Positions 1-59,545 of a stretch of DNA of 64,000 bases are shown here, in pieces; the first letter of the stretch is position 1; each line of letters opens with the position of its first letter. The translations under genes and the position numbers were made by a program. The DNA comes from Geosiphon pyriformis uo1. Taxonomy: Eukaryota > Fungi > Glomeromycota. The stretch spans positions 130,087 to 194,086 of the forward strand of contig JAAOMT010000187.1 of NCBI GenBank assembly GCA_016748015.1, given 5' to 3'. Under the pieces are notes generated by a model that was not told the origin of the DNA, did not search any database, and worked only from the letters and a program-made list of their open reading frames with translations.

Positions 1-286
1 ATTCCTGTAAAAGAGTTAACTTTCACAGCAAAGTAACTATACATTTTTAGTGAGCTTCCAGACAAGCAATTCCTGGGAAAGAGTTGACGTTTACTACAAT
101 GTAACTACACAAAGTAACTGGCATGGAATTGGCCATTTCACTTATAAGCCCAGCAGTTCAAATTATAGGAGATAATTTAAAGATAAATTCAGTTATCGGA
201 GGTTCAAACACTTCCCATAATTGTGAATTAACAGCATTACAACAAACATACAAGAGCTAAGAAGAGACCAAAAACCTCCGGTAACA
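1..286 (+). mobile_element. 3' part of a family A Gypsy LTR (cut by the window edge), inserted into ORF2 of LINE copy 1
   Basis: Near-identical to the distal ~290 nt of the LTRs ending at 21899, 31106 and 58599. Ends ...CCTCCGGTAACA; LINE ORF2 sequence (LVKASQ, minus strand) resumes directly at 287. Confidence 0.93.
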
Positions 287-3117: not shown

Positions 3118-3239
3118 AACAGCAATAATAGAGCCAATAGTGGCCTCGTAATTGAAGAACAGTTTTGATTTATCATATTGAATGATAAAAAACTTCTTTC
3201 GAAAAAACTTTTGACTCTTTTTTGGAAATTTTGGATGAA

Positions 3240-12400: not shown

Positions 12401-12600
12401 TTTTTAGTTTTATAATATGCTAACTTTAATAATAATAATTGGTTCTAAATCTTGTAAAATATTATTTAATTTAATTAATATTTTTTGTGTTTTTAATTAT
12501 AATATGCTAAGTATTAATAAAACTTTGTTATAATATATTTTTAATTAATTATTATGTACTATTTTAATTAAAATTTTGTTTTCTAATTATAATTTATATG
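9500..12600. other. AT-rich desert of hypermutated TE relics, not assignable
   Basis: No ORF of 60 aa or more, near-total CpG loss, long A/T tracts. Confidence 0.6.
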
Positions 12601-12601
12601 T

Positions 12602-12960
12602 TATTACAGAAAAGTTTTCTTGGTATACTTTAATTGTTAATATTCCGTTTTAATTGTAATCAGTCTCTTATGAGTTCCTCAATTTTTATGTGTTGAATAT
12701 TAATAATAATGTATTGAAGGTTTTTTCTTAATATTGTGATATAAGTTTTCTCTTTAATTTTAGTTGTCTTTGTATGTTGTGTACTTCTTTTCAGAGGCTA
12801 ATCTAAAATCTACTTACTGTTTAGGATCTTCTCTAAGACTATTTTTACAATTGCCTGATATGTTTCTTTAATCTAGAAACACAGAATGTTAATGATCTTT
12901 TCACAATTTTTCTAAATATATAATAAAGTTTTTTCAATTTAATTAGTAATTACATGAATA
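12602..12960 (-). mobile_element. Degraded LTR-like repeat (family C), 3' part
   Basis: Reverse complement aligns with about 51900-52245 (TTTCTAGATTAAAGAAACATAT...GAAAAC...TGTAATA end). Confidence 0.65.
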
Positions 12961-13095
12961 ATCTTGATCAAAAATTATTTTTCAAAGAGTTTAAAGATAG
13001 AATGATAGTTTCATTTGCTAGAAAAAATATGTGAATTCTATTGTTAATTTTGTAATTATGATGTTAATTCCATTTATTATTTTTATTAATTTTTT

Positions 13096-14871
13096 TTGAA
13101 TAAAATTTTAATGTTGGCATCAAGTCTAATGAGTCTAAAAAAAAAAAGAGGTGGTGCTTTGGAGGATAATATAAGTAATAAGAAAATTGTTACTGCTAAA
13201 GTGTCAAGTGGTCGTTTATGGGGTTCTAAAACAGGCAATACTACTGAATCAGATAGTGTGGACATGGAGGAAGAGTTCTTAGTTGAGGAGACCAGTTTTG
13301 ATCATGATAAAAGTGGTATTATTGCTGGTAGAGACTTAGAACAAACTCCTAAGAGCTCGAAAATTCAAACTAAGAAAGCGCTTGGCAAACTGCTGGGGAA
13401 GATTGATTTTTTGGGTGGTAATGATGATGATGACATTCTCTTGGACAAACCTGTAGTTCTCCTCCCCCCTTTGAAAAATTTGATCAATGTTTCTGTTAGA
13501 AAAATTTTTACTCTGGACATTAGTTTGGACAATGTTGTTGGGAAATCCACTCAGGAAAATCTTGTGGTGGTCAGGAAACTATTTTCAAAAATCAATGGTT
13601 TTGGGGAGGTCTCTACCCCCTCAAAATTTGCTGGGATTGTCAGAGTGACGTTTATTTCTGAAGTGAGTTTGATAAAAGTTACCAAGTTGGCCACTGATAC
13701 AAAGATTCTAGTAAATACCAATTTTAAGAAATCATTTGGGTGTTCAGATCAGGCTGTGATGGTGAAAGAAATTCCTGTTGGGATATTGGTTAAGACTGTG
13801 CACACTGCATTTTTCAAATTTGGGATAATTAAATCAGTCAAGATACAACTAGTGGGCCTATGACAGAAAGCATTTATCAAATTTAAAGATCAAAATCAGG
13901 CTGATCTTTTGGCTTCCAGATGGTTTATCCTTATTGGAAAAGATGCTGTTCATGTGGCCAGAGCCAATCTTGATAAACAAACATGAGACTCTAGGAATCT
14001 GCATAAGATACTGCTTTATACTCTTCTTATGAGAACCAATGCTCATGATATTTGGAATTATATTGGCTCTGTAAGTGGGAAGACTTGTGTGATTGATCAT
14101 CATCCAATCACATATGCTCGAGCCAGGTGTGTTATTGTTTGTTTTGGGTCAGCTGAGTCATTGGATGCTGTCATGGGTACTACTCTTATGTTAAGAGGTG
14201 CTTATCTTCATTGGTCTTATCTTGATTCTGTTGCATGTACAAAGTGTAATAAGGTGGGTTACACTTTTCTGAGTTGTGCTTTTGGTAAGAAGATTTCTTC
14301 TGGTAGCTTGTCATGTTGGGTTCTTACAAATGCAGATAAAAACAGACTGGCAGCTATTTACGCCAAATGTTCAGTGCCAGTCTCTCACTCTGTCTTTTTT
14401 GGTGGTGTTTCATGGGCCAAAATTGTTGTTGGGTCTTCCTTTTTCTCTTTCTCTGTTTGAAATGTTTTGTTGAATAATGGCTTTTCTTCGGAGATGAAGC
14501 CTATCCCACATGTGTCTCTGGTGTTGAATAATAGGTTTGCCACTCTTGAGCACAGTTTTGCCAGCCTCGCAGAGCACATGGATGAGCTGGTTAAGAGATT
14601 GGACACACCTGGACCAATGGTTTTCCAGCTTAGCCCTGGATGTCAGCCATTGATGATCCTTTCATTACAGAATTAAGGGGCGGATATAGTGATGAGTGAG
14701 GGTTCGGGTGTGGTCACTGGTGGTAAGACTGTTGTAGGAGTGGTGGTTTTTGATCCTGCAGTTATATTAAAAATGGAGAAAACATTGAACAATTTTTCAA
14801 TCACAGTTATAAGTCTTTTGGCTAAAATGAACAATGCTGGTTCAGTTTCTGCTGTTCATTTTTCTCAATGA
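13096..14871 (+). pseudogene. LINE copy 2 ORF1
   Basis: In-frame fragments with RRM-like segments and CTKCNKVGYTFLSC; several stops. Confidence 0.85.
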
Positions 14872-17800
14872 TGGATTTGGTTTGGAAAATTGTTATGTGC
14901 AATGTTTGAGATATCAATGTTTCTGCTAAGCAGGAAGACATTGTTTGTTGGCATAGGAAATCAGGAAATTTGGTCTCGATTGTTACAGAAACAAAATTAA
15001 GGTCTAGCTATAGGCTGTGGATTAAGGATAGATTTGATGGTGTTTGGGTTTTTACTTCTGGTTTAAACACGAGTTTTCTTGGTGCTGGGGTGGCCATAAT
15101 CATGAACATCTCTCTGGCTCATCATGTGTGTAAAATTTCTGAGGTGCTTAGTTGGCTCTTTTCTATCAAGTTGCTTTTCAAAAATAAGCTGTTAGTGTTA
15201 ATTTTGGGGCTTTATACTGGTGCTTCTCTGGCTGTTTGTTTCACTTAAACAGGTAAAGTTAACTCTTTGATTGCAAAGGCTGTAAATGAGTCCTCTTTTG
15301 TTATCTTGGATGGTAATTTCAATGAAGATGAATTTCACAAATACACTAATTTCAAGAAATGCTCTGATTTTGGTCTGATCAACTCTTTGGGTAAGAGCTT
15401 ATTCATGAAGGTACTGACATGGAGCAATTCTCAAGGTGTCTCAAAAACAATTAATTACATGTTTGTTTCTTCAAGTTTGGCCAATGCAGTTGTGCATCAT
15501 GCTGTTTTGAATGTTAGTGAACATTTTGACACTGATTATCAAGCTGTTTTTGTGTTCATGGGCTTGAGTGGCTTGTTGGATGTGTGATTGAATTTTCTTC
15601 ACAAGCAAGTGAATAAAGATTGTTGGAAGTTTAATTTTAAGGGTGCTGATGATACAATATAGACCAGATTTAAAGATGCTTCAGCAGCTAATGCCACCAT
15701 GTTCTTTGATGATTTTATTGTTTTTGAGCAATTCTCAGATTTGGATGTGATATAGGATACTGTTCACAAGTTTGTTACATTGTCAGCTAATGAAATATTC
15801 AAAAAGAAATGGTTTAAAGACTTTGGTCACATCTTTATCAAAGAATCTTCGAAGTTTTATAGATTAGAACTTTTGGTTTCAAAGATTGTTAGGGCTTTTC
15901 ATAGAGCTGTTGTTGATGGTTTTGTTTCTCTTATAAAGTATTGGTGTTCTCTGGACAGTACTAAGACTTTGGTTATTTAGGATTTAGTGGACTCTGGTGC
16001 AACTTTTGATCATGTTTGTTCAGCTTTCTGTATCATCAGAAAATCTTATAGTGTGCTAAAATGTGTGAAATCTCTGAAAGCCAAGAAAGCGAACATTAGG
16101 TCTGTTATAGATAAAAAAATGGAGAGCTTTAAAACAAATAAGGGTCATACTATCAGAAGTGTATTGAAGTGTCCATTTTACAAGGTGGTGTTTGACCATC
16201 TAGTTGTCAATGATGAGCTGGTTCTAGAGTTTAGTTTGGTTAAGTCTAAGATGAATGCAATTATGAAGAGTTGGACTCAGAAATGTCAAATTGTCTCTGA
16301 TGTTTTTAGTGAGTGGCATTGTCAATATCAGCCTTTGGAATATGTTTTTGATAGAGCTTTTTCTGGTGTAATGTGTTCAATTGGATTTTATGAATTTTTT
16401 GGGGTGGTGTCTAATCTACCTGATGGCAAAGCTGCCAGTCTCTTGGATATCTCAAATGAACTTTGGAAGCATTGTGATAAATCTGTTCTGGACATGCTCT
16501 TGGTACTTTTGAATTCATGTTTGGTTGGTAGATCTGTGCCCAGTTCTTGGAAAGAGGCTTGGGTCTTGATGATTTCTAAGTGGGAAAACATTCTGACAAA
16601 TACTTGTCCTATTGCTTTGATTGAGATGGCTCACAAGATTCTTTTCAAGATTCTCTCTGATAGAATCTCCTCAGCTTGTAGTACTTTTGATGTTCTTTGT
16701 GGGAATAATTTTTTGGTTTTGAAGGGCACAACAATTCAGTCTCTTATTTTTGTGATCAGGTCAGTTATTGAAGATGCTTTGGAGAAAGACTGGAAGCTCT
16801 GACTAGTTCTGCAGGACATGTAGAAGGCATATAATTCAATAGGCTGGGAACATCTTGAGAAAAGTTTAGTCAGGATTAAGATGTGTGACAGATTCATTTG
16901 ATTTTTTGGTAGTATTCATAGAAATTGTATCAACCAAGTTATGATGGACTTTGGTTTAACGAATGGTTATCATATACATGATGGACTAGATCAAGAAGAG
17001 GTTTTTTCCTTCCTTTTGTAACACATATTTTATGATCCTCTGTTGTGTGAAGTCAAACATCAGGAGAGTGTGTGTGGATACAGAATCAATTCTCACTTTA
17101 TTTCCAAAAGTGGTTGTACTGAATCTCAGGCTGGATTTTCTTTTTTTTTGCTGCTGGTGCCTTTATTAACAATATGATTTGGGTTGGCAACAGTCAGAAT
17201 ACTACCCAACACATTCTTGATGTTGTTAGTAAATTTTTCCAGATTAATAACATTTCAATCAATAATAACAAAACTGTAGCCATTCCCATTAATAATAAAG
17301 TCAGCCACCCATCTCTTTTTATTAGTGGTTTGCTCATTTCTGTGGCCCGTAAAGAAAAATCTCATCAGTATCTTGGTATTTTTCTGTCGACTGAGGGTCT
17401 TTCTAAGCCTAGTTTGACTAAAGCACATTTGGACATTTGTTTCTTCACTAATTTGGTCTTGAAAAAAGCTGTTTCAGATAAGCAGTTTTTCATTTTATAA
17501 TTGGTTATAAAATACAGTTTAGCTTTGTTTCTATTAGTGTTTGCAACAAGTGGGATGCTTTAATTTGCAAGGGCTTAAAGCTGAAATCTGGTCTTCTGCT
17601 TGATTTTTCTGGTAATACTATTTACTATCCTTCTTTTTATGATTTAAAGTCTTTTTTACAATGTCAGTCTGAGAGTAAGATTGCTTCACTTATCAGTTTC
17701 ACAAACTCTGGTAGAATTCTGGGTCATTTGTTTAGTCACAGGTTTCATAACTTGCAAGTTCTATGTTGGTGCTCCCTCCATCCATTGAGTTTTCCTGCTT

Positions 17801-19504
17801 GTATTTATGTCAGTGCTTCTAATAATTTTTTGTTAGGTATGGTTTGCATTCTTCATGACTGCAATTTGTCTTTGGGTGGCTCTTTGACCAGCTCTTTTTG
17901 ATTTCGTGATGGGGTGCCTATATCTACTGTTCTGGGCAAGTCTTTGTTTTTCAAGTTTTTGCTTTCTCTCTGGCATTATGACATAGCCTTTATGAACCAG
18001 TTTCATGATCATCATGGTAATGTCTTTAACTGGTGCATCTTTAAGCAATGGAAGAAACTAGATCTTTGTGGGCCAGTTCTTGATTAGTTCAAGCTCTCTG
18101 TAGTATTTCTCATTGGTCTGCCCTTTTCTTTTCCAGCTTTGGGTAGTGTTGACTCTCTGAACATTTGCGGGTCCAGTGATTTTTTGTCTGTTTGCAATCA
18201 TCTTTCTCAGGTTGGCTCTGATAGTTTGTCTGTTTATACAGATAGTTCTTTCAAGAATTTGGACACAATTGGTTGTTGGGCTGGTGCTGCTGTCTTTTTT
18301 GAGGACATTAATTTGGGTTTGAGTATTAGTGTTCATGGTTTGGTATTATCTACTTTGGCAGAGTTACAGACTATTATCTTGGCCCTGGAGTGTATACCCA
18401 GGTCTTGCTCTGTTTGCTTGTTTTTAGATAGTCAAGCTGCTTTGGATGCTTGTAAATTGAAGCTAAATTTGATGCATTCTGATTTTTGCAATTGGTGTTG
18501 GGTCAAGCATCAGCATATTAACAATATTATTTGCAGTAAGAACTTAAAGGTCACTTGGTGCAAGGTCAAGAGCCACTTTAGCATTTTGGGAAATGACTGT
18601 GCTGACAGTCTTGCTGACACTTCTTTTTTCTCTGGGTGGTTTCTTTCTTCTTACATTGGTGAACATTTTTTGGTGGCCAATGGTGGTACAGTCTCTGGTA
18701 ATTCTAGGCACTTTGTTCAGGATGTGTTTCGTGCTGTTTATCATGTACATTGGAAGGTTGGTTCTGGTTCTGGTTTTTTGGTGGGTGGTTTGCTTTTAGA
18801 TGTTAATTGGCTCAGCTTTTCTCAGGTATGACATCTTAATTTGCATATGGCCATGGGTTTTACCAGCAGGTGCATTGCTAATACTTGTACCTACTTTGCA
18901 CCATCAACTTCCTATAGCTGTTCGAAAATGTCTCTATAATAAGTGCTATTTCAGTGTTCTATGCTTGTATTGTGGGGAGGTGGAAATGTCTGATTATGTG
19001 TTTTCTTGCACAATCAATATTTCTGCTTATCACAAGATTTTGGAGTTCTGTGCATCCTCTTGAAAGGAACTTTCTGGTCATTCTCTTCCTCTCTTGAGTG
19101 TTTTGCAGCTGTTGTCATCTTGTGCTTTGGATTTTTTGGTGTTCTCAGCTATTTTTAAGGATTTTGTTTTCAATGGGTGGTTTTCAGAGACTGTTTCTGT
19201 CTTCCATGATTCCAAAGTAGCTAGAATTAAAGTTGCTGAGTTTGTGCACTCTCTTTGTCTCACTTTCAGAGATAATATTTGGGTGGTTTATGCTAAGCAT
19301 TGCGTTTTTATGGAGAAACATAGGCTGATCCCAATAAATGGTTTAGCTCCCATCTCAGTTTCTGTCTTAGCTTTAAAGTTTTCAGCTGGTGTGATTAAAT
19401 TGCTTGGGATTTCTGAAGCTTTTGGTGTCTATTTTGGCTTTCACAAATCTTGTTTGTTTTTTTTAAGTATTAGTACCTTGGTTTCGGTTGATATATCTGC
19501 ATAG
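14868..19504 (+). pseudogene. LINE copy 2 ORF2 (APE-RT-RNase H-CCHC)
   Basis: VTETKL, GNFN; RT LQDM*KAYNSIGW and GLDQEEVFS; RNase H VYTDSS, AELQTI, LDSQ, KVKSHFSILGNDCAD; CLYCGEVEMSDYVFSC. Confidence 0.92.
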
Positions 19505-19679
19505 TGTTGTCCTGACTGGTTCAAGTGGCTGGTCATGTGTAGTAAACACATGATTCATGCTTAGTTTAAATCATTTCTTTGATGTATAGTTCTAAATGGT
19601 GTTTGGACTTTGCTTATTAAGTGTTAATAAAAAAAAAAATTTTTTTAATTATAATAGTTTAATTTTCAATATTATTTCT

Positions 19680-20921
19680 TATTTTTTTTATTTAAAAATT
19701 TTTGTAGTTAAAATAATTTCTAAAAATTAGACTGTTTTGAATACATATCATTTAGAATTGATTCTAATTTTGTCAGATTTTTATAATTGTTGTTAAATTA
19801 AATAAAAACATATTATGAATATTATTAAAGAAAAAAATTTTAAGATTAGTTAATATTAAGTCAAAAATTATTCTGGTATTTTAGACAATAAAAAGACTAA
19901 TATTCTGATTAATATTGTTTTATTTTTAAATATAATACTTTTAACTTATATGTAAAAATAATTTATTAAGACTAATAATAAAATTATTTTTAAGAATACA
20001 AAATATTTTGTTTATAGAACTTTTCAAACAATTTATCATGTTTATTAAAAAGTCTGATTTAATATTAAAATTTTAGATAGTAATTTGCTTAAAAATATAA
20101 ACTAAATTTGATTATTATTGGTTTGGCACTTTAATTTTTATATGATAACTAAATTCATTAACAAAATTAAAGCTGAAATATGCTTTTATTTTATAAAAAC
20201 ATTATATTATAAATTGCCAATAACTGTTTAAAAATATCTATATGAGAAATATTATTATAGTGTTTTATATTTATATTGTGAAAAAATTGAATTTTTAGAC
20301 CACATTTTTTTTGCAAAATAAATATTAAGGCTTGCAAAAAGCTGTTAAATACCCATATAACTATCTAAAAAATATTATCTGGTCTGCACAAATTATTATT
20401 GTGTATATTTTAATTACTCTTTTTGTATTTTTTTAATATTACTGTATATTTTGCTTTATATAAAAAATTTGTTTTTAAAAACTGATTTTAAAAGTTTTTT
20501 TTGGTTTTTAAAAATACTAAAATTGCTAGTTGTAAGATTGTAAACTTTGTATATAGTTTTAAACTGGTTTATAAGAATAATATTTGGTTTGTTTATTTAA
20601 AATATTGAGTTTTTATGAAAAAAAATAATTTAATTTTATATAATAAAATTATACTAATGGTTATTATCAGTCTATTATCTGTATTATTTAATAGTATAAT
20701 TAAGCTATTTGGGATTACTAAGACTTTTAGAGTTAATTTTAATATATGCAAATTGTGTTTGTTTTTTTTTAAATATTAAAGATATAGTTTCTGTATATAT
20801 AAAAACATAATATTGTTTTAATTGGTATAAATAACTGGTTATATATAATAAACATATAATTTATATTTAGTTTAGATTACTTAATTTAATATATTATAAA
20901 TAGTATTTAAATTATACTCAT
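19680..20921 (+). mobile_element. Very old LINE relic (RNase H region to 3' UTR), cut at its 3' tip by the Gypsy LTR
   Basis: 19845-19900 is a transition-saturated WHKVKGHSGILGNERAD segment; 20810-20921 aligns to the LINE 3' UTR up to ...ACTCAT (ACTCGT in copy 3). Confidence 0.8.
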
Positions 20922-21899
20922 TGTTACCAGACGAAATTAAAGATATTATTTAGCATGAAATTATCTTATAATTCCTATCATTAATTAGCATATATTATCA
21001 TTTCAAATGATTACTTATTACATTAGCAAAAATATCCGAAATTATCATTTAATTAATAACCCAAATTGTACACAACACAAATGTAACCTAATTGTGATGA
21101 TCAATTATGCAATACCCCGAACTATGTAATATTCAGAAGTTCGCCGAAATTTGTAGAAATTCGCTGAAATAATTGATAGTTCACCGAAATATCTAATAGT
21201 TTGCCAAAATAACTTGTAGTTTGCCGAAATGTATCTTTAATTCAGCAAAATTGTAGAAAATAGCAAAGTTCAAGTTCATAGAATAGTGTTACAACAAGTT
21301 GTATAAAAGAAGAGCTTCTCTTTTTGAGAAAATATATCTTACTTTAGATTTATCACTTAGAACCATTTCTACACACAAAAGAAATAAATATCAAATAATT
21401 CGAAAAACCAAATTCTTTAAATTATTACACTTGGAGAATCCCCAAAACCCAACTAACATTTTGAAATTGATTAGCTACCAATTTCAATAAACTGTTAGTG
21501 ACTCCAGGCCTGGATAGAAAACGTTTCTCTTGACAAAAATTCTATTTCTTTTACATTTCTTTTATTTTCTTTTATTTTCTTAATCATAATCATTAGGGTA
21601 ACCTACAGACGAGATTCCTGTAGAAGAGTTGACTTTCACAGCAAAGTAACTACACATTTTTAGTAAGCTTCCAGACGAGCAATTCCTGGGAAAGAGTTGA
21701 CGTTTACTACAACGTAACTACATAAAGTAACTGGCAAGGAATTGGCCATTCCACTTATAAGCCCAGCAGTTCAAATTATAGGAGATAATTTGAAAATAAA
21801 TTCAGTTATTGGACATTCAACTACATCCAGAAAACGTGAATTTACAACAGACAGACATTAACAACATTTAAGAAAAGAGACCAAAAACCTCCAATAACA
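20922..21899 (+). repeat. A1 5' LTR (978 bp)
   Basis: TGTTACCAG...CCAATAACA; TATA-like TATAAAA at 21302; AATAAA at 21486; direct repeat of 30171-31106. Confidence 0.96.
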
Positions 21900-21901
21900 T
21901 T

Positions 21902-21917
21902 TGGTGCTCTCCCACGG
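21902..21917 (+). promoter_or_regulatory. Primer binding site TGGTGCTCTCCCACGG (tRNA not assigned)
   Basis: Starts 2 nt after the LTR with TGG; complementary to a tRNA-like 3' end CCGUG-GGAGAGC-A-CCA. Confidence 0.85.
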
Positions 21918-21941
21918 AAATAACACAGCAACAAATTCAAA

Positions 21942-24900
21942 GTGGCGACTGCCTTAGACATCACAACTTTAGAGTACTATCAATCGATTTACACACACTG
22001 CAAACAACGATTTGAAATACACAACGGAATTATAGCTTTCAAGAAAACACTTTTTCAATACATCGAAAATCGAATCAATGACTACCTCTTTGGGAACTAT
22101 AACATTACAACAGTTAAAAAAGATCTTCTTAAGAACATACTACACTATTCCAACACTGAATCAGAAAACATTAGTGCTGAAGCTTGCACTACTTATTTTG
22201 AGGAACTCGATTATAATATCATTCAATTCTGTGAAGAAAAATATCTTGTAAATGCACAATTTGCCTTTGAACTCGAATTTGAACCTGAAACCAGTAGCAA
22301 CAAAAGACAAAAAGATAACTGACCTGTTCATACAACACCCAATACTCCCAAAATATCATTCAAACATTTACAAACACCTGAACAAGGAACCAGCTCAAAA
22401 CTTTCACTTACTATCACACCTTTTCCAGCTTCATTTGCACAAGCCCAAACACCTAATTCACCCTTGAATCGATTTGCAAGACCAGAAGATTTTACATCAC
22501 TCAGAAGTCCCACCAGACAACAAGAACTCCTTCAAACTAGTTTCAATCTCCTTGATTTTCTAGCTAAAAACCAAAGTGAACACTCTGAGACAGCAGCAAA
22601 CGAAGAAAACAACTCTGAAATAACTAAAGAAGAATCAATAAACAGTGACAACAAAGAAAACGAAATGACAACATACATTGCAAAAATCCCTAAATTCAAT
22701 GGAGAAGATATTGAGACCAGTTCCCAAGAATGGCTCGACCAAGTTACCAAAGCAGAAGATGCAAATGGATGGAATGCTGCCAGAATGTTGAGAACAATTC
22801 CTTACTTTCTTAAAAAAACAGCAGAAGAATGGTTTGAAAACCTTGCCGCCCCATTCAATGATTGGAACGCTTTTAAAACAGCCTTCCTTGAACAGTTCAC
22901 TGACAATAATACCTCCATCACTCTTCACAATTGTTTTCGAAATATCAAACAAGAACCCTCTGAATCCATTATGACTTATATTGGAAAATTCAACAAACTT
23001 CTCAGACGGATTTGCCAACTTGAGACAAATGATTATTATTCCGATGCTCAAATCTTGGATCAATTTATTGCTGGTCTAAAAGATAAACTAATTAAAAAAA
23101 TTTGCCCACACACACCAGAAGATTTAAACTCTGCCATACAGCATGCGAAAAGATACGAAATGGCCATGGAAGAGACCAATTGTACAAAACTTGTAAATTT
23201 GGCAATTGAAGAAACCAGCTCAGCAACTGAGGAAAAAATTGACCAACTCACAAAGAAGATCAAAAACTATTTTACCAACCAACAACAACAACAACCCCAA
23301 AGATATCAACCACCCCAAAGACAAAATCAAAATAACTTTGCACCACTTTCCAATAACCAGCCCCAAAATTGCCATTATTGTGGAATCTCTGGCCACTGAA
23401 AAAGAGATTGTAGAAAGCTACAGTAAGACCAACAAAACAGGAGTAATCAACGTTACTCTTCACCACAGCAATCTTATTATCAACCATCACCACCAGCTTA
23501 CTATCCACCAAGACCCCAATACCAAAATAACTATTATCAGCCTGCCCCACAATCAATCCAACAGCAATACCAACAACCACCCACACAACATTATCAAGTA
23601 CCTACTCGAAGACTGATTACACAAAATCAATTCACACCACAAAACCAATACCAAGTAAACAACAATAGAATCAGTTTAAACAACCAATTGGTTCCCCGAA
23701 ATTCCACTCAACCAAGACCCAACCACTACCACACTCAACCCAGTTATTTAACAATGCCAGAAGAACAGAATTTTCACTATACTGCACTCTCGGAAGATAG
23801 AGCTGCAGCACAACAACAACAAAACCCTTCTCATAAACACACCACTATTCCACCAGCCCAAATTGCTGAAAATGCCAATCTCTCTGATATCTTTCCTTTT
23901 GAATTTGAAGCAAATAAATTACCATTCTTGCTTAGCAATACAGTGGCTAATGAGCAAAAAGCCATCACTGCAATATACACAGAAGCTGAAGTAGAAGGAA
24001 AGCCAATTCGCTTGATCCTAGACAGTGGATCCGCTGGAAGCATTATCATCTACCAGTTAATGCAACAGTTGAAAAGAAATGTCGACCGACCAGCTCAAAC
24101 AGTAATCGTCACTGCTAATGGCATAAAAAAGACACCAGTAGAAGAAATTGACAATTTTCCGTTCACTCTTGATGGAATCACCATTCTAGTCAAAGTTCTT
24201 GTAATGGATGCACCCCAGTACCAAGCTCTTGTCAGAAATAATTGGCTTCAAAAAGCCAATGCTAATCTGAATTGGGAAACACAAAAGTTAACAATCTCCT
24301 ACCAAGGACAACACGTCTGGGTACCTGCCATTTGTGGTACATTCAACAAATGCTTTGAAAAAGCCCCGGCTTTTGAATTTGAACCAGAAGAAGAAAAACC
24401 AATAATTGAAACATTCATGGCTCTTGGATCAACGTCCAACTGGGCTGATGAAACAAAACAAGAACATTTTACTCCACACACTAAATCCGAAACCTCTGGA
24501 TGGAATATACCTTACTCAAAACCTAAACTAAAGAAACGACGCCCCTATATTCCCCTTAAATATAGAGACTGCCACAAAAAACTATCGTCAATGAGAGCCT
24601 GCATTTCACCTGAAGAAGAATATGAGAATCATACTTGTTATTACTGTAAGGCTTGCCACAGAGAGCGATAGGGCCATCTAATAAAAAGGAGTGGAAAATG
24701 GGACAACACTCTTTGTTTGACTTGTGGAGATATGCTACCAGAAGAATGCAATTGGATTGATGTAGCAATGAGAGAAGGTGTTTGCAATCAGACCTGCCAA
24801 TATGCTTTATCAATTTCAAAAAAAGTAAAAAGAGGAACACCCTTTAATGCAGCATACAACAGTGCTCTCAACAAACTTTATTACTACCCTTATGATGCTG

Positions 24901-27554
24901 AGATGATTTTTGACTTAGCAATGACATTAATTAATGGAGCTACCAAAGAAGATGTTCGTCAAATGAAGGAAGCGGAATACATTGAATACACTATAGAATT
25001 AGCTGGATTCGATTATGAAAATGAAGTAGAAGTCTACCACCAAATTGCAAGTCACACCTATCCAACCCAAGAAGCTCAAATTCAACGATTAGAGCAAATG
25101 AACATTAGGCTATGTGAAAAATGCATTATGTCTTGCGATGAACAATAGTGTCTTGAATGCTATGCTCTTAGTATCCCCTTGCCCAGCGAAAATGATGAGA
25201 ATGAAATTGAATTTGGAGAACCTGAAGAAACGGAAGAAATTGAAACAACACCCATCTACCTTATCAAAAATCAGCCTGCCTTACAACTTAAATACTTCAA
25301 CAACAATGAACAAGGAATAAAACCCGAAAAAGCACACAAAATTGATGCTGGATATGACCTAAGATATCCAGGCAAGGATACTCTTGTTCTCAAACCCAAA
25401 TCTCTCACAAAAATCAACCTCAAAATTGCACTTGAAATCCTGCTAGGAGCAATGGTTTAAATCGCCTCCCAGTCCTCTCTGGCAAGCAAAGAAATCAATG
25501 TCAGAGGAGGAATAATCGATGCTGGATATACTGAAAACATAACAGTGATGCTTTAAAATGAAACTGACAAACCATTCAAGATTGAACATGCTGAAAAAAT
25601 TGCCCAAGCTATTTATCTACCCCTAATCAACATTTTGGGTTTACAACTAGTTAATCAAAGAGAGCAATTAAGAAAGAGCAATAGAGGAACCCAAGGTTTT
25701 GGTTCAACTGGATGATTCACAGTTCCAGTTAATATAGCTCTTAATACACAGAACAAATCCCACCAGATTCTCAGACTTTCACAACCGATTACCATCTCAC
25801 TCTTTGGAGAACATCTGGAAATCTACACCTGCCCAAAGCCAACAACCACACAACAAATTTTTGAGTCTAATGAGCAAGTCTGCTTGGAACATAATATTTC
25901 GATCCCAAACATTTATATTCCAGAAGAAACAAAGAAAGTCCGAGTTACTTTTTACAACCCCAATAATTACCCCATAATTTTATTAAATAATTTAGAAATT
26001 GGAGTTATTCACAGTAATATATTTCAACAAGAATTACCCCAAACAGTTCCCGATTTCTCTGAAATTATTGGACATTCAATACCAAAAATCAACCCAAACC
26101 CCAGCTCCGAAAACTACCATGTTGTCATGGAAAAACTATCTCAAATTAACATGGGACAACTTGAACCACAACAACAGACTCAGCTCAAAGAGCTAATTAC
26201 AGAATTTGCTGATATCTTTGCCGAAAACAACAATGACTTAGGAAGAATTGATTTGGTTCAACACCAAATCTATACAAGAAATGCCAAACCCAGGCGACAA
26301 CAAGCCTACTGAGTTGCTCCAGAAAGTCACCAATTTATCCGAGAAGAAGTACAACGGATGCTTAACAATAGGCTTATTCAACCATCAATAAGCCCATGGG
26401 CCTCACCCGTGGTCCTAGTTAAAAAGAAAAATGGAAAGATACGATTTTGTGTTGATTACTGACAACTCAACAGTGTCACCATTGGGGATGCCTACTCTCT
26501 TCCCTGAATTGATGACATGTTGGATGCCCTTGGAAAGTCCAAATACTTTTTGACATTAGATTTAGAGAGTGAATACTGGCAAGTTTCTATGGACCCCAAA
26601 GACCACCCCAAAACAGCATTTACCACTCAAGGAGGAAATTACGAGTTTAATGTAATGCCTTTTAGATTATGCAATGCACCAGCAACATTCCAAAGACTCA
26701 TGGATGTTGTTTACAAAGGCCTCCTTTGGAAATCAGTAGTAGTTTATTTTGATGACACTCATGTTTATTTACCATCTTTCGAGCTACATTTAATTCACTT
26801 ACAAGAAGTTTTTCAATGATTATGGAAAGCAGAATTGAAACTGAACATTGAAAAATGCTACTTTGGAAAAACAAGTTTAGCTTTTCTTGGTCACATTGTG
26901 AGCAAAGATGGAATTAAACCAGACCCTGGAAAAATCAGTACTGTCAAGAACTTCAAGACTCCATGAAATACCACAGAATTAAGAAGATTTATTGGATTAG
27001 CATCCTATTACCGAAAATTCATCAAAGGATTCTCAGAAATTGCAAAACCCCTCAACCAGCTCACTACTAAAAATGTCGAATACAAATAAACAGAAGAACA
27101 CCAAAATGCCTTTGAGATACTTAAAGAAAAACTCATAACAGCTCCAATCCTCACCTATCCAGATTTCAACAACCAATTCTGATTAGCAACTGACGCCTCT
27201 TATACTGCCTTTGGTGCCATCCTATCACAGTTAGATGACAATGGAAATGAGCAAGTAATTGCTTATGCTAGTAGAACATTAAAGCCAGCTGAAAAGAACT
27301 ACCCCACAACAGAATTAGAAACCGCAGCAGTAATCTGTTCCCTACATCACTTTAATCTTTACCTCAGACCCAAAGAATTTGATATTATCACTGATAATAT
27401 TGGACTTAAATGACTTCAGAACAAAAACACCCAGCTGAATGCAAAACAAACCCGATGGACAGGATTTTTAGTTAATTACCAATACATTGTACACCACAAA
27501 CCAGGAAAACTTCATACCAATGTTGATTGTCTCTCAAGAATGAGGCAAGATTAG
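21942..27554 (+). pseudogene. A1 polyprotein frame: N-terminal extension, Gag (ATG 22665, CCHC near 23370-23411), protease, Cys-rich insert, dUTPase, RT, RNase H
   Basis: All fragments share one frame. CHYCGISGH*KRDC; LILDSGSAGSII; SPWASPVVLVKKKNGKIRFCVDY; MPFRLCNAPATFQRLM; YFDD; LATDAS; NYPTTELE; HKPGKLHTNVDCLSR. Confidence 0.95.
25290..25712 (+). pseudogene. dut: dUTPase domain within A1 pol
   Basis: All five trimeric dUTPase motifs: AGYDL, IASQSSLA, GIIDAGYT, EKIAQ, RGTQGFGSTG. Confidence 0.95.
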
Positions 27555-27603
27555 AAAACAAAACCAATACCCATTTGAATTAACAGCATCAAAACAACAA
27601 ACA

Positions 27604-28989
27604 ATGAACCCTGAAAACTACAACAATCTCAAACAATATCTGGAGACATTAACAATCCCAACAGATTGGTCCCCAGACAAAAAACATCAGTTACAACAAC
27701 AAGCCAAACAATATTTTCTACACAACAACATTATCTATTATCGAAATTTCAAAAACCCAACCAAACCACTCAGATTAATACAAGAACAGAAAAAGGAGAC
27801 CATTTTATACAACATGCACTCAGATCCTTCATCAGCATACTTCGGAAAAGATAGCACCACCCAAAGAACACTAGAATATTACTTTTGGCCTCGAATGAGA
27901 AAAGACATTCACAAATATGTCAAATCTTGTGATAGTTGTCAAAGAAGAGGAGAAACTTGCCCTACAGAACCTTTAAATCCAATCAAAATTGGACAGCCTT
28001 TTGACAGAGTTGGTATCAATTTAGTCGGACCACTATCTATCACCACTTAAGGAAACCGTTATATTGCAGTAGCTGTAGACTATTTTACTAAATGGCCTAA
28101 AGCCAGAGCCATTCAATGAGCAGATGCGAAATCAGTAGCAAAATTCATCTACAAAGACATCATTTGTAGACACGGATGTCCAATTGAACTTTTATCTGAT
28201 CAAGGAACACACTTTGTGAACAACCTGATACAAGAAATTTGCGAACAATTTAATGTCAAAAGACCTCTGTCTTTGCCCTACCATCTACAAACAAATGGAC
28301 TTGTGGAATGTTTTAACAGAACATTGTGTGAGTCATTAGCCAAAGTCTCAACCAATTTTGAGCAAGAATGGGATCTCTTTATTCCATCAGTGTTACTAGC
28401 ATATAGGACATTAAAACAAGATACCACGAAACACACACTATTTGATTTAACTTATGGAAGGACGGCAACATTACCAATTAGTTTCACAGTGGAAACATAC
28501 CCAGCATAACCGATCGATGAAAACAATTTCTAAGAAACGCTTCAGCAAAGAGTCTACACTCTGCTTAGCACATTGGAAAGAAAATGACAAATAGCAGCCA
28601 CTCATATTGAACACTCCCAAGCTCAACAAAAAGAACGGCATGATAACAAATTGTTTTCAGCCACCAATGAATTTAAAATTGGAAACAAAGTTCTCTTACA
28701 CAGAACTAAAGCTGAAAAACAATGGAATAAAAAATTTGAAAATAAATGGGATGGACCATTTTTTATCCATGAAGTCCTAGACAACGGATCATACAAGCTA
28801 AGACTTGATAACAAAATCCTAGCAAAAGTTGCACATGGAGATTGTTTGAAACACTATCATTTCAGAAACAATCCTGAACCATTAATTCCACAAATTGGTA
28901 CACATTCCCCTTTGGTCAGTCCCGAAGACATTTCCCGAAACTTAGAACCAATAGTTGTCATTGAACAACCTTCCAACCTGAACACTTAA
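27604..28989 (+). pseudogene. A1 integrase ORF (461 codons), in a different frame from RT-RH
   Basis: HHCC-like MHSD...CDSC; GINLVGP; LLSDQGTHF; GLVECFN; KWDGPF (GPY/F). No chromodomain seen. Confidence 0.93.
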
Positions 28990-29168
28990 TTTAATTTTAC
29001 TAGTTATTTTCTTATAATTTAGAAACAATCTCACAAAAACAAAACAAAAATAACATAAAAACCCATACACCAAAAATAATTTTCTTTTATTTCAAATCGC
29101 TTATAATGACTATTCTCAAAACATTCAACAATTATCCCAAAAACTAATGTTAGCTTTAAAAACAATAC

Positions 29169-29188
29169 NNNNNNNNNNNNNNNNNNNN
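29169..29188. other. Assembly gap (20 N) with unmerged overlap: 28812-29168 repeated at 29189-29546
   Basis: The two flanking copies are identical apart from a 1-nt indel near the contig end. Confidence 0.92.
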
Positions 29189-29482
29189 CAAAATCCTAGC
29201 AAAAGTTGCACATGGAGATTGTTTGAAACACTATCATTTCAGAAACAATCCTGAACCATTAATTCCACAAATTGGTACACATTCCCCTTTGGTCAGTCCC
29301 GAAGACATTTCCCGAAACTTAGAACCAATAGTTGTCATTGAACAACCTTCCAACCTGAACACTTAATTTAATTTTACTAGTTATTTTCTTATAATTTAGA
29401 AACAATCTCACAAAAACAAAACAAAAATAACATAAAAACCCATACACCAAAAATAATTTTCTTTTATTTCAAATCGCTTATA

Positions 29483-30202
29483 ATGACTATTCCTCAAAAC
29501 ATTCAACAATTATCCCAAAAACTAATGTTAGCTTTAAAAACAATACCTGAATTATCCATTACTGTTACTAAAAACCACATTAATTATACCCAAACAGAAG
29601 TAGTTACAAATTTAGCCCCAAATTCATGAAAATATCACCCATATAAGAAAAACACAAGAAGTTATACTGGAATTCACCTGCCAGAACTTTTAAAGCTTGC
29701 TTTAAGAGAAAACCTAATGCTCACTCCAATTAGTATTCCACCAAATGCTACAAGTCAACAAAGACTTTAATTGTGTCTCAATGAGGAAAACACTGAATAT
29801 CCTCCAATCTATAGATATTTCCACATTAGAAAAACACTCTACGAACGGAAACTGGAACTTACAACAGCAAACCTCACAAAAGAAACTATTCAAAAACAAC
29901 TCCACAATGAATTCAAGACAACAGCTGGACCAACAAACAGTCGCTACAAGCTCAGAGCTGCTCTTAGACTTTATGACCTATTCCACACCTGTGAAAACAT
30001 ACTGCAAAACCCAATTTTTCAACCTTTGAAAATTCAATATATTGGAAAGCTTACAGAACTGAAATTTCAACAATTTTCAGACCAAATTTCTTCAATAATT
30101 TTGGATTATTATCTGGAAATAACAGACAGTATTTGGACTTTGATGAAGCTCAGTCTTAAAGAGGAGGTTATGTTATCAGACGAAATTAGAGATATTATTT
30201 AG
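29483..30202 (+). pseudogene. A1 ORF3: 239-codon accessory ORF of unknown function, reads through the PPT into the 3' LTR
   Basis: MTIPQNIQQL...YRYFHI...ALRLYDLF...IGKLTE...DEIRDII*; two internal stops; same length in A2; homologue in family B. Confidence 0.85.
30158..30167 (+). promoter_or_regulatory. Polypurine tract
   Basis: AAAGAGGAGG 3 nt before the 3' LTR (GAGGAGGAGG in A2). Confidence 0.85.
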
Positions 30203-31106
30203 CATAAAATTATCTTATAATTCCTATCATTAATTAGCATATATTATCATTTCAAATGATTACTTATTACATTAGCAAAAATGTCCGAAATTATCATTTA
30301 ATTATTAATCCAAATTGTATACAACACAAATGTAACCTAATTGCGATGATCAATCATGCAATACCCCAAACTATGTAACATTCAGAAGTTTGCCAAAATT
30401 TGTAGAAATTCGCTGAAATAACTTATAGTTCACCGAAATTTATCTTTAGTTCAGCAAAATTGTAGGAAATAGCAAAGTTCAAGTTTATAGAATAGTGTTA
30501 CAACAAGTTGTATAAAAAAAGAGCTTCTCTTTTCAAGAAAATGTATCTTATTCTAGATTTATCACTTAGAACTATTTCTATACACAAAAGAAATAAAAAT
30601 CAAATAATTTGAAAAACCAAATTCTTTAATTAGTACACTTGGAAAATTCCCAAAACCCAACTAACGTTTTGAAATTGATTAGCTACCAATTTCAATAAAC
30701 TGTTGGTAACTCTAGGCCTGGATAGAAAACGTTTCTCTTGACAAAAATTCTATTTCTTTTATATTTCTTTTATTTTCTTTTATTTTCCTATCATAATTAT
30801 TAGAGTAATCTATAGACGAGATTTCTGTAGAAGAGTTGACTTTCACAGCAAAATAACTACACATTTTTAGTGAGCTTCCAGATGAGCAATTTCTGGGAAA
30901 GAGTTGACGTTTACTACAACGTAACTACATAAAGTTACTGGCAAGGAATTGGCCATTCCACTTATAAGCCCAGCAGTTCAAATTATAGGAGATAATTTAA
31001 AGATAAATTCAGTTATTGGAGGTTCAACTACATCCAGAAAACGCAAATTTACAACAGACAGGCATCAACAACATTTAAGAAAAGAGACCAAAAACCTCCA
31101 GTAACA
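30171..31106 (+). repeat. A1 3' LTR (936 bp)
   Basis: TGTTATCAG...CCAGTAACA; lacks two of the 20-bp U3 units present in the 5' LTR. Confidence 0.96.
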
Positions 31107-31451
31107 CTGTATATTAGTTAAGCTAAATAATATTATATTAAATTCAAAATTTTTTTTATGTATAATAAATAATATTTTTTATTATTTGAATTTATAATTA
31201 TTTATTAATATTTATTATTTAAGTTTAATATAAAAAACTATTTTTTTTTGCCAAATAAGTTAAATAACTCTTAAATTCATAAAATTAAATAATAAATATT
31301 ATAAATAATATTATATAAAAAAAAAACTCTTTCTTTCATTGATCCCCTGGTCACAATGAGAACTTTGAGTTGTCACTGAAATAGCCTTCTTTTTCCCTTT
31401 CTCTTTCACCTTTCTCCAGTTATTTCTTCAGACATTCCCTCTTTTGTTGCT

Positions 31452-38091: not shown

Positions 38092-38635
38092 TGTTGTTCT
38101 GATTGGCCCGAGTGGCTGGTCACATGTAGACAATGCATGATTCACGCCTAGTATAGATCATTTCCTTGATGTGTAGCTCTAGGTAGTGTTTGGACCTCAC
38201 TCGTAAAATGAAATAAAAAAAAAATATTATTATTAAGCATGTAATTGTTTACATAAAATCAAATTTTTTTATTTTTTTCTGAAATAATATTATCAGTTTT
38301 TATTTTGTGTTAAATAATATTAGTTTTTCAAATTTATTTTTATTTATAAATATATTAATCTATTAATTAAATAATACTTAAAATTGTATTTTTTTTTTCT
38401 AATTATTCTAATTAAAATAGATAATATTTTTTTTGGCCTAAATTTGTAATGTAAAATTCATATATTTACACAATAAAATAAAATTTAAAATATTTGTTAA
38501 TAAGTAATTTTTAATTTTAGACTTAAATATTTAATAATATTATTAATTCAAATTTTTATATAGTTTTTTATTTTATTATAAATTAAAATTCTAATATTTT
38601 TGTGGTTTTTAGTTAATATATTTATTTTAATAATA

Positions 38636-40108
38636 ATAATATTAACAGAAATTTGAGATATTATTTAACATAAAATTATCTTTATAATTTTTATTATTAA
38701 TTAGTATATATTATTATTTCAAATTATTACTTAAAAAACAAATATATATCATATTATTATAAAAAGAAAAAAAAAAATTCAAAATTTTATGTCTTATATA
38801 ATTTTATATAACATGTAATTTTGAATTTTTATTAACCAATTAAAATATAAAAATGTTAAAATCTTATAACTTTAAATAATACATGATTTATTAACTAATT
38901 AAAATATAGAAATATAGTTTAATTTATGATACTTTTAGTATACTGAATTTTTTATGTTTATTATATAACTATATTCAAATATATTACAAAATCTTTAATG
39001 TTAATTTATAGAAGTTTTATAAATATAAAACTTGTTATATTGTGATATAATTAAGAAAACTTGTATATTAGAAAAATTTAATAATAAATAAAATTAAAAA
39101 TACAATATTAAAAATATAATAGATTAGGAAATAAAAAACATGAATAAAAAATATATTAGATTAAAAAATAAAAAACATACTAGATCAGAAGATAAAAAAC
39201 ATATTAAATTAAACACAAATTTTTGGTTATTTTTATATAAATAAAATAATATAATAAGTTGAAATGTTTAAATTAATATATTTTTATAATAATTTTAATT
39301 ATAAGTTTGATTATATTTATTATATAAATTTGATTATATTATATTATATATTTATAGTATATATATTTATAATTATGTATTATAAATATTATATTATTAT
39401 AATATAAAATAATATTATTATAGAATATTTTATTATATATTTTATTAAAAAACAAGAAAAAATGGTTTTATAATAATTAATAATAATATAATATATGTTT
39501 ATCTTCTTATTATATTATCAAATTATTTGAATTATTATTTAATTAATAATTTAATATATAATGATTAGATTATATAATATATTAAATTACATAATATTTA
39601 AATTTTATTAAAATGTTTAATAATTTAATAAAATATTTAATAATCTACTAAAATAATTTATAGTTTGCAAAAATAACTTGTAGTTTGATAAAATATATTT
39701 TTAATTTACTAAAAAATCAAAAAAAAAGTTAAATTATAGAATAGTATTATAACAAGTTGTATAAAAAAACTTTTTTTTTTGAAAAAAAAATTTTTCTTAA
39801 AATTAATTTTCTATTAGATATTTTAACTTAGAAACATATTCTTACAAATTAAATTAATAAAAACTTACTTTGAAAATCTAACTATCTAATTATTACTATT
39901 TTAAAAATTAATTTTTTTATACTAATATTCTGAAATTAATTAATTATTAATTTCAGTAACTATTAGTAACTTTTAGGTTTAAATTTAAAATAACTTTTTT
40001 GACACATTTTAACTTATTTTAATTTATTTTTTTTATTTTTTTATATTATTAAATAGTCTGCAGTTAAAATTTTCTGTAGAAAAATTAACTTTTATAGCAA
40101 AATAAATA
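38636..40108 (+). mobile_element. Heavily decayed family-A-like LTR fragments mixed with other AT-rich relics
   Basis: 38640-38730 matches the LTR start; about 39480-40108 matches the U3 array, ACAAGTTGTATAAAA and the first hairpin module in transition-saturated form. Confidence 0.65.
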
Positions 40109-58598: not shown

Positions 58599-59545
58599 TA
58601 TTACTGGAGGTTTTTGGTCTCTTCTTAGCTCTTGTATGTTGGTTGTAATGCTGTTAATTCATGACTATGGGAAGTGTTTGAACCTCTGATAACTGAATTT
58701 ATCTTCAAATTATTTCCTATAATTTGAACTGCTGGGCTTATAAGTAGAATGGCCAATTCCATGCCAGTTATTTTGTATAGTTATATTGTAGTAAATGTCA
58801 ACTCTTTCCCAGGAATTGCTCATCTGGAAGCTTACTAAAAATGTGTAGTTACTTTGCTGTGAAAGTCAACTCTTCTACAGGAATTTCGTCTGTAGGCTAC
58901 CCTAATGATTGTAATAAGAAAAATAAAAGAAAAATAAAAGAAATGTAAAAGAAATAGAATTTTATCAAGGGAAACGTTTTTCTATCCAGGCCTGGAGTCA
59001 CTAACAGTTTTATTGAAATTGGTAGCTAATCAATTTCAAAACTGTTTTAGTAGGAATTGGTTAATTTTACAAGGGAAAATGATTAAGGATTTGATTTTTC
59101 GAATTATTTGATATTTATTTCGTTTTTTGTGTGTATAAAGAATAATTCTAATTGTTAAATCTGAAGTAAGATATATTTTTTCGAAGAGAGAAGCTCTTTT
59201 TTTATACAACTTGTCATAACACTATTCTATAAACTTGAACTTTGTTTTTTTCTACAATTTTGTTAAACTAAGACTACATTTCGGCAAACTACAAGTTATT
59301 TCTGTAAACTATTAGATATTTCAGTGAACTATCAATTATTTTGGCAAATTTTTACAAATTTTGGCAAACTTTTTGAATGTTACATAGTTTGGGGTATTGC
59401 ATGATTGATTATCACAATTAGGTTATATTTGTGTTATATACAAATTAGGTTATTAATTAAATGATAATTTTGGATATTTTGCTAATGTAATAAGTGATAA
59501 TTTGAAATGCTAATTAATGATAAGAATTATAAGGGTAATTTCATG

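What the first reader, a model, noticed from the sequence alone, without database searches (positions are those of the whole stretch)
21603..21719. Two tandem double-hairpin RNA modules in the LTR with compensatory base changes
Seen: module 1 is CTACAG-acgagattc-CTGTAG-aag-AGTT(g)ACTTT-cacagc-AAAGTAACT. Module 2 is TTCCAG-acgagcaattc-CTGGGA-aag-AGTT(g)ACGTT-tactac-AACGTAACT. Between them there are three compensatory swaps (C-G/T-A, A-T/C-G, T-A/G-C) and one U-A/U.G change. The ACGAG..TTC loop, AAG linker, bulged G and 6-nt loop length are kept. The wobble favours the sense RNA. The modules recur in all family A LTRs here, downstream of TATA and AATAAA. Inference: an unnamed cis-acting RNA motif (packaging/dimerisation, protein-binding site, translation element, or catalytic).
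Basis: partly seen in the sequence, partly recalled or inferred. Interest (0 to 1): 0.8.

Follow-up and report, generated by a model that had tools for sequence, protein, structure and literature searches.

The report
Duplicated twin-hairpin signal in fungal retrotransposon
A jumping gene of the fungus Geosiphon carries in its end repeat two copies of a small two-hairpin unit whose base pairs are all kept while the letters change, likely a docking site by which the element's own capsid protein would pick its RNA for packaging.

Summary
Observation confirmed. Two 49/51-nt modules, 66 nt apart, lie in the 3' part (likely U5) of the LTR of a Geosiphon pyriformis-type Ty3/gypsy element. All 15 pairs survive 7 stem substitutions (3 double, 1 wobble); neutral simulations give P of 5e-5 to 6e-4. 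Each module alone folds as proposed. Against: all covariation comes from one duplication; folding z-scores are modest; stem 1 is unstable in context; family-wide variants are decay-type only; links to two other LTR families are not significant; no RNA data. No Rfam match, no known ribozyme core, no IRE consensus, no hit in three contig collections. Best reading (0.45): protein-docking sites, likely for Gag, in a packaging and translation-control leader. The scan has no look-alike by sequence; it noted analogous hairpin arrays and an AUG-free leader in other genomes. New variant of a known kind; interest 0.5.

The parts
20922..21899 (+). 5' LTR (TG...CA) of a Ty3/gypsy element; partner LTR at 30171-31106
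   Evidence: 935 aligned positions, 52 transitions, 6 transversions; no matching target-site duplication
21302..21307 (+). TATAAA, candidate promoter; start site not mapped
   Evidence: function inferred
21452..21499 (+). Predicted hairpin that overlaps AAUAAA (21486-21491); candidate poly(A) hairpin, which would place the modules in U5
   Evidence: (z -3.3 and -3.7 in 60-nt windows); role inferred
21503..21514 (+). Perfect GC-rich 12-nt palindrome; candidate dimer-initiation site
   Evidence: duplex -24.7 kcal/mol, matched by 2 of 1000 shuffles (any palindrome of 12 nt or more: 197 of 1000); kept in the 59-kb copy, one U.G in the 3' LTR, decay-compatible in the 40-kb copy
21603..21651 (+). 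Module 1: 6-bp stem with 9-nt loop, AAG linker, 4+5-bp stem with one 5' bulge and a hexaloop (possible cross-loop pair C21637-G21641)
21669..21719 (+). Module 2: same fold, 11-nt first loop, possible cross-loop pair U21705-A21709
21738..21752 (+). Near-palindromic small hairpin; not better than chance as a dimer site
   Evidence: (39 of 200 shuffles as good)
21770..21794 (+). Predicted 10-bp hairpin with a purine pentaloop
   Evidence: loop variant G>A at 21782 in 26% of laid depth
21902..21919 (+). tRNA-type primer-binding site (starts TGG); tRNA not identified
   Evidence: sequence
21942..21944 (+). GUG in AAA-GUG-G context, likely start of gag; first in-frame AUG is at 22665
   Evidence: initiation inferred
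21942..23417 (+). gag: N-terminal domain, capsid, CCHC knuckle (broken by stops in this copy)
   Evidence: Retrotrans_gag 1.8e-13; zf-CCHC E 0.006, under the curated cut-off
23427..28980 (+). pol region: protease, dUTPase, RT, RNase H, integrase (stops throughout)
   Evidence: dUTPase 1.7e-21; rve 9.8e-11
29483..30202 (+). ORF3, about 239 aa, no known family (end approximate)
30810..30926 (+). Both modules in the 3' LTR
58779..58895 (-). Both modules in the LTR of another subfamily copy
1..106 (+). Modules in a fourth LTR, module 1 cut by the window start
40056..40108 (+). Decayed module 1 in a diverged LTR (68% identity), followed by unrelated sequence
   Evidence: 64 bits; this copy was in the model

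Best explanation
The two modules are a tandem duplication with fully kept base pairing in the end repeat of a fungal Ty3/gypsy element, and likely act in the RNA as repeated docking sites for the element's own Gag protein, which would stall translation of the full-length RNA and route it to dimerisation and packaging. Shown: the duplication, the covariation, the position between the AATAAA signals and the primer-binding site, the palindrome 90 nt upstream, the AUG-free leader and the Met-free gag N-terminus. Inferred: that the stems form in vivo; that the hexaloop closes as a pseudotriloop (cross-loop pair 1-5, extruded C6) read by a protein together with the bulge; that the modules are in U5 and so occur once, at the 5' end of the RNA; that ribosomes scan this leader from the cap to a GUG (long Gag) or on to AUG 22665 (capsid form); that the ligand is Gag's CCHC domain and not ORF3 or a host protein.
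For: Covariation P 5e-5 to 6e-4; 116 of 120 pair cells kept. The only covarying Watson-Crick pair among unpaired positions is loop 1-5, and the commonest change in module 1 (21637 C>T, 34% of depth, against about 10% at three other non-CpG sites in the modules) would keep it as U.G. Pseudotriloops are protein-recognition sites, and U-A and U-G cross-loop pairs occur in the IRE and HCV IIId (PMC3884659). Laid contig depth is 1.5-2.6 million over 21610-21804 against 0.2-0.3 million at 21820-21849, and two subfamily LTRs differ by 1 transversion in 21603-21802 against 22 in 21803-21899: the block is shared across subfamilies. GC-rich palindrome, 2 of 1000 shuffles; Ty3 RNA dimerises through a GC-rich 5' palindrome (PMC11381356); Ty3 packaging depends on UTRs or POL, and Gag binding is proposed to shift RNA from translation to packaging (PMC4974528). 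Leader: 0 AUG in 632 nt, 5.3 expected, P 0.0025; 3 Met in 14,983 residues of 69 N-terminal domains (related copies, not independent).
Against: All covariation comes from one duplication event. The 40 of 71 variant rows shown for the family give only C>T or G>A inside the modules, several breaking pairs, so living copies add no covariation. Folding z only -1.4 to -1.5; stem-1 pair probabilities are 0.02-0.06 for module 2 and 0.04-0.72 for module 1 in whole-leader folds of this copy, and 0.25-0.82 in averaged local folds. The loop pair alone has P 0.07-0.13 (0.18-0.32 for any unpaired pair), and the loop closes on U-A, not the G-C that favours pseudotriloops (PMC3884659). Much of U3 is as conserved between subfamilies as the module block, so shared sequence may reflect recombination. 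Depth over the modules may be inflated by cross-laying of the two copies. A U5 signal would also be on any spliced RNA. Nothing tested binding; no RNA run was listed.
Confidence: 0.45

Rival explanations
1. Translation-control element for a host factor or for ORF3: the modules tune scanning or help recruit ribosomes for initiation at the GUG, without a role in packaging.
For: AUG-free leader and GUG-headed gag; IRE-like geometry of hairpin 2 (5-bp upper stem, 5' bulge, hexaloop with 1-5 pair; IRE layout recalled); two copies in series; ORF3 has no known function.
Against: Modules are 220-340 nt upstream of the GUG and about 270 nt or more from the likely cap; AUG avoidance fits cap-dependent scanning better than internal entry; IRE letters are not met.
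Confidence: 0.17
2. No RNA function: a short duplication whose inverted repeats were kept matched by template switching during replication or reverse transcription, or by chance.
For: Modest folding scores; context-dependent stem 1; one event only; no covariation among living copies; no significant cross-family match.
Against: Chance P of 6e-4 or less; changes fall in two separate stems; template switching should erase the G.U wobble and the bulge, and both persist (inference).
Confidence: 0.15
3. Splice or 3'-end control: each module carries donor-like GU sites, one inside the 3' arm of hairpin 2; folding hides them and sets the balance between genomic RNA and a spliced ORF3 message.
For: 5 of the 7 donor-like sites in 20922-21960 fall in 21598-21727; 5 found against 0.54 expected, one unit alone P 0.009; ORF3 lies behind pol and would need its own message; a possible acceptor lies about 85 nt before its AUG.
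Against: The donor pattern was written after seeing the sites, and the duplication doubles the count; no spliced read is available; splicing has not been detected for Ty1 and Ty3 (PMC4974528).
Confidence: 0.13
4. A small self-cleaving or otherwise catalytic RNA of an undescribed class.
For: Compact size, tandem copies, conserved loop and linker letters; ribozymes occur in other retroelements (search listing).
Against: No hammerhead, twister, HDV-like, hairpin loop-B or pistol core on either strand (cores recalled); no Rfam match; no 4-nt complement links either loop to its own module in both copies; cleavage in U5 would cut R from the genomic RNA, which reverse transcription needs (inference).
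Confidence: 0.06

Closest known systems
5' cis-acting packaging and dimerisation region of yeast Ty3 and Ty1 RNA (PMC11381356, PMC4974528; passages read)
   Same: Ty3/gypsy element with CCHC Gag; structured 5' leader; GC-rich palindrome near the 5' end; proposed translation-to-packaging switch.
   Different: No duplicated two-hairpin module appears in the passages read; the Ty3 dimer site is a hexamer at nt 391-396, here a 12-mer lies upstream of the primer site; the leader here is about 600 nt with no AUG.
Pseudotriloop hairpins: HBV epsilon apical loop, HIV-1 TAR, spumaretrovirus 5' hairpin, BMV promoter (PMC3884659; first quarter of the text and passages read)
   Same: Hexaloop with complementary positions 1 and 5 and a 3' pyrimidine, in the 5' leader of a reverse-transcribing element.
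   Different: Loop-closing pair is U-A, not G-C; triloop AC(A/U); joined to a second hairpin and duplicated.
Iron-responsive element (consensus recalled; pseudotriloop status in PMC3884659)
   Same: 5-bp upper stem, single 5' bulge, hexaloop with C-G or U-A cross-loop pair.
   Different: Bulge is G (or A), not C; triloop is not AGU; no Rfam match.
Retroviral core packaging signals with tandem hairpins beside a palindrome (MLV SL-B/C/D, HIV-1 SL1-SL3; recalled, not tested)
   Same: Palindrome next to repeated small hairpins in the leader.
   Different: There downstream of the primer site, here upstream; no tetraloops; no sequence likeness shown.

Membership tests
Ty3/gypsy LTR retrotransposon (the host element) | TG...CA LTRs, primer site, gag then PR-RT-RH-IN order | tested here: met
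Any Rfam 15 family | Covariance-model score at the gathering threshold | tested here: not met
   0 in the window; at E up to 10 in 20900-22000 two weak hits, neither on the modules
Iron-responsive element | CAGUGN or UAGUAN loop and unpaired C five pairs below (recalled) | tested here: not met
   Loops are CACAGC and UACUAC, bulge G
Iron-responsive element | 5-bp upper stem, 5' single bulge, hexaloop with 1-5 pair | tested here: met
   (geometry only)
Pseudotriloop hairpin | Cross-loop pair 1-5 and 3' pyrimidine bulge | tested here: inconclusive
   C-G and U-A with C6, P 0.07-0.3; not observed physically
Pseudotriloop hairpin | G-C loop-closing pair (stabilising; natural cases do not all have it, PMC3884659) | tested here: not met
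   Closing pair U-A in both modules
Hammerhead, twister, HDV-like, hairpin, pistol ribozymes | Conserved catalytic core letters (recalled patterns) | tested here: not met
   no core on either strand of 21560-21800 (only bare GUC triplets on the minus strand)
Self-cleaving ribozyme of any class | Site-specific cleavage | not testable with these tools
   No RNA run listed
Retroelement packaging/dimerisation signal | Position in the 5' leader of the genomic RNA | tested here: inconclusive
   Between TATAAA/AATAAA and the primer site; start and poly(A) sites unmapped
Retroelement packaging/dimerisation signal | GC-rich palindrome able to form an intermolecular duplex | tested here: met
   21503-21514; it lies outside the modules
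Retroelement packaging/dimerisation signal | Selective Gag binding and need for encapsidation | not testable with these tools
   No assay possible

The most novel reading that the evidence does not exclude
The modules are an IRE-like pseudotriloop switch invented by a fungal retrotransposon lineage: bound by Gag or by the orphan ORF3 protein, they set whether ribosomes start at the GUG (long Gag) or scan on to the capsid AUG, and a diverged form of the same unit sits in U5 of the two other LTR families in this window, whose gag genes also seem to begin K-V at the same place.
Probability: 0.15. Interest if true: 0.78.

Novelty: new variant of a known kind. Interest (0 to 1): 0.5.

Why it matters
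Packaging signals of Ty3/gypsy elements are not clearly defined even in yeast (PMC4974528 of 2016 and PMC11381356 of 2024, passages). A compact, duplicated, covarying unit gives a small testable target with natural compensatory variants, in a genome 41.2% covered by LTR sequence (PMC11952901, passage). The AUG-free leader and the GUG-headed gag would add a fungal case of non-AUG initiation with leaky scanning.

Tried and rejected
No whole genome was held for the window. Rfam: nothing on the modules or on the family-C LTRs. Exact-pattern scans for the module: 0 in viral contigs, 0 in genome contigs (25, 93), 0 in metagenome contigs (28); the patterns were family-specific, so diverged forms would be missed. 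Protein-anchored locus searches: none for the gag alignments; one search used a wrong reading frame and says nothing; four viral-collection loci with RT at 30-47% identity gave no model hit better than E 0.56. Sequencing runs: no RNA holder listed; 1 of 3 DNA runs covered the stretch and may be the window's own source; the rarer variants of module 1 remain unseen. Cross-family homology: predicted Geosiphon proteins led to a second LTR family (12531-13109 minus, 51752-52332 plus) and a third (48-56 kb and 11 kb copies) with hairpins at a like position; of 18 comparisons of family-A modules with them one reached p 0.04 uncorrected, the rest 0.06-0.96; families two and three matched at p 0.009 in 1 of 4 comparisons; MAFFT did not put the family-A modules in the register I had proposed by eye; the model's best hit outside its own family is in that second LTR but at E 1.3. 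A 37.9-point hit at 42166-42255 lies in another element's coding region and lacks the stems. A third decayed module at the palindrome: not significant (53-375 of 500 shuffles). Second palindrome: not significant. Antisense HDV-like reading: loop length and flanking helices do not fit (by inspection). ORF3: Pfam none, atlas leads under 0.9, model pLDDT 46.5, no fold match at E 0.001. Literature: searches listed no paper describing this motif or non-AUG gag starts in these elements; I saw listings only except for four papers, the library lacks most subscription journals, and no supplements were read.

Full report
Setting. The finding lies in a 978-bp TG...CA repeat at 20922-21899 with a partner at 30171-31106. 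Between them are gag (Retrotrans_gag 1.8e-13), protease, dUTPase (1.7e-21), RT, RNase H and integrase in Ty3/gypsy order, and a 239-aa ORF3. The 120 listed hits for gag (of 426) and the 120 listed for ORF3 (of 199) are all labelled Geosiphon pyriformis, whose genome is 41.2% LTR sequence (PMC11952901, passages). The copy is broken by stops; its LTRs differ by 52 transitions and 6 transversions in 935 positions and have no matching target-site duplication.

The observation. The modules are at 21603-21651 and 21669-21719 as quoted. In register they differ at 10 of 49 positions, 7 of them among the 30 paired ones, and all 15 pairs stay canonical: three double changes and one wobble. Each folds alone into the two hairpins. 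Neutral simulations reach this in 5e-5 to 6e-4 of trials. The unit recurs in three more LTRs of the family and, decayed, in a diverged one; 116 of 120 pair cells are canonical in 8 aligned modules, and sliding the partners drops pairing to 33-51%. These 8 rows hold only two independent types. Folding scores are modest (z -1.5 and -1.4). Hairpin 2 is fairly stable in context (pair probabilities 0.4-0.99 in whole-leader folds; 0.33-0.93 in averaged local folds); hairpin 1 ranges from 0.02 to 0.95 with copy and window.

Family-wide variation. One of three DNA runs covered the stretch, with 7,279 contigs laid; it may be the window's own source. Of 71 variant rows 40 were shown; inside the modules they are all C>T or G>A, 23-45% at CpG sites and about 10% at three other sites, except 21637 C>T at 34%. 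This is the pattern of decay after insertion and adds no covariation. Depth is 1.5-2.6 million over 21610-21804 and 0.2-0.3 million at 21820-21849. Two subfamily LTRs in the window differ by 1 transversion in 21603-21802 and 22 in 21803-21899, but most of U3 is also little changed. So the block is shared among subfamilies, by selection or by recombination.

(a) Hexaloop positions 1 and 5 are C-G in module 1 and U-A in module 2, with C at 6: the only covarying Watson-Crick pair among unpaired positions, P 0.07-0.13 for that pair and 0.18-0.32 for any pair. With a 5-bp upper stem and one 5' bulge this is the geometry of the IRE (recalled) and of pseudotriloops, which are protein-recognition sites; U-A and U-G cross-loop pairs occur in natural cases, but a G-C closing pair favours them and ours is U-A (PMC3884659, first quarter and passages). 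(b) A perfect GC-rich 12-nt palindrome at 21503-21514, matched in duplex energy by 2 of 1000 shuffles, although 197 of 1000 hold some palindrome of 12 nt or more. It follows a predicted hairpin that overlaps AAUAAA 21486, which suggests that the modules are in U5. (c) The 632 nt from the TATA box to gag hold no AUG (5.3 expected, P 0.0025; antisense 13 against 11.8); the other three copies hold 2-3 AUGs each, which may have arisen by decay. The gag frame has no Met for 241 codons after a GUG at 21942 in AAA-GUG-G context. Of 112 stored proteins that match this start, 95 read Val, 10 Met and 7 another residue, and 69 N-terminal domains hold 3 Met in 14,983 residues; these are related copies of about two subfamilies. 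Proteins of two other gag clades, and the window at 48899, show K-V at the same place. (d) Five donor-like GU sites fall in 21598-21727 (pattern chosen afterwards).

Search for relatives. No Rfam family matches. Exact patterns found nothing in the viral, genome and metagenome collections, and protein-anchored searches gave no locus with the motif. Predicted proteins that read through LTR ends led to two further LTR families in the window with hairpins at a like position behind a U-rich tract. By eye they share a skeleton with the modules, but the copies are heavily decayed and the tests do not support it: 1 of 18 comparisons at p 0.04 uncorrected, another register by MAFFT, best model hit E 1.3. 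This stays a lead.

Mechanism. The most likely reading (0.45) is a pair of protein-docking sites in the 5' leader of the genomic RNA. An AUG-free leader suggests scanning from the cap; hairpins of about -10 kcal/mol would let it pass, a bound protein might not. Gag with its CCHC knuckle (under the cut-off in this copy) is the obvious ligand; for Ty elements Gag binding is proposed to shift RNA from translation to packaging, Ty3 packaging depends on UTRs or POL (PMC4974528, passages), and Ty3 RNA dimerises through a GC-rich 5' palindrome (PMC11381356, passages). Everything past the covariation and the anatomy is inference. Rivals: translation control by a host factor or ORF3 (0.17); no RNA function, with inverted repeats kept matched by template switching (0.15); splice-donor masking for an ORF3 message (0.13); a new ribozyme (0.06; no known core). 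ORF3 gave no clue.

Comparison and verdict. It works like the structured leader signals of Ty3, Ty1 and retroviruses and has IRE-like geometry, but it fails the IRE letters and every Rfam model. Ten searches of the held library listed no description of it; that library is incomplete and no supplements were read. The scan's own notes hold no look-alike by sequence or place, but several analogous hairpin arrays in retrotransposons of other genomes and one AUG-free fungal gypsy leader; these are unchecked notes and not support. Verdict: a real, undescribed motif; new variant of a known kind; interest 0.5.

Noticed in passing
window 21310-22665 (+): No AUG in the 632-nt leader and no Met in the first 241 codons of gag; likely GUG start at 21942 with leaky scanning to AUG 22665. 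K-V also heads two other gag clades (e.g. window 48899).
   Followed up: partly
window 21737-21897 (+): A frame of about 53 codons runs to the LTR end and stays largely open in both subfamilies and in many predicted proteins; it has AUG only in some copies (21737 A>T, 24% of depth).
   Followed up: no
window 25323-25712 (+): dUTPase between protease and RT in a fungal Ty3/gypsy element; papers on dUTPase-bearing gypsy elements were listed but not read.
   Followed up: partly
window 24300-25150 (+): A Cys-rich stretch of about 280 aa with no Pfam match between protease and dUTPase.
   Followed up: no
window 29483-30202 (+): ORF3 behind pol, 199 hits, the 120 listed all Geosiphon, no family or fold match; a relative lies at 57119-57544 (-).
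   Followed up: partly
window 12531-13109 (-) and 51752-52332 (+): Decayed LTRs of a second family with two possible hairpins about 140 nt before the LTR end.
   Followed up: partly
window 48071-48841, 49971-50686, 51169-51635 (+), 55371-55809, 11115-11292 (-): LTRs of a third family; they hold a near-palindromic 12-mer about 60 nt behind the TATA box and, at 48845-48865, a primer site related to that of family A.
   Followed up: partly
window 28812-29546: A 358-bp stretch duplicated at 99.7% on both sides of a 20-N gap (29169-29188), probably an assembly join; with the missing target-site duplication the element may be a composite.
   Followed up: no
window 21127-21250: An array of 20-bp repeats in U3, 40 bp shorter in the 3' LTR; possible enhancer.
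   Followed up: no
window 13100-19700, 31400-38300, 40700-46500 (+), 300-3300 (-): Four copies at 65-70% identity of a second retroelement with an RNase H domain and no LTR seen.
   Followed up: no
window 54695-55207: Tandem array with a 57-bp period.
   Followed up: no
window 6017-8803 (+): 928-codon host-like frame with a weak TPR_Sec16 match (E 6e-4, under the cut-off).
   Followed up: no
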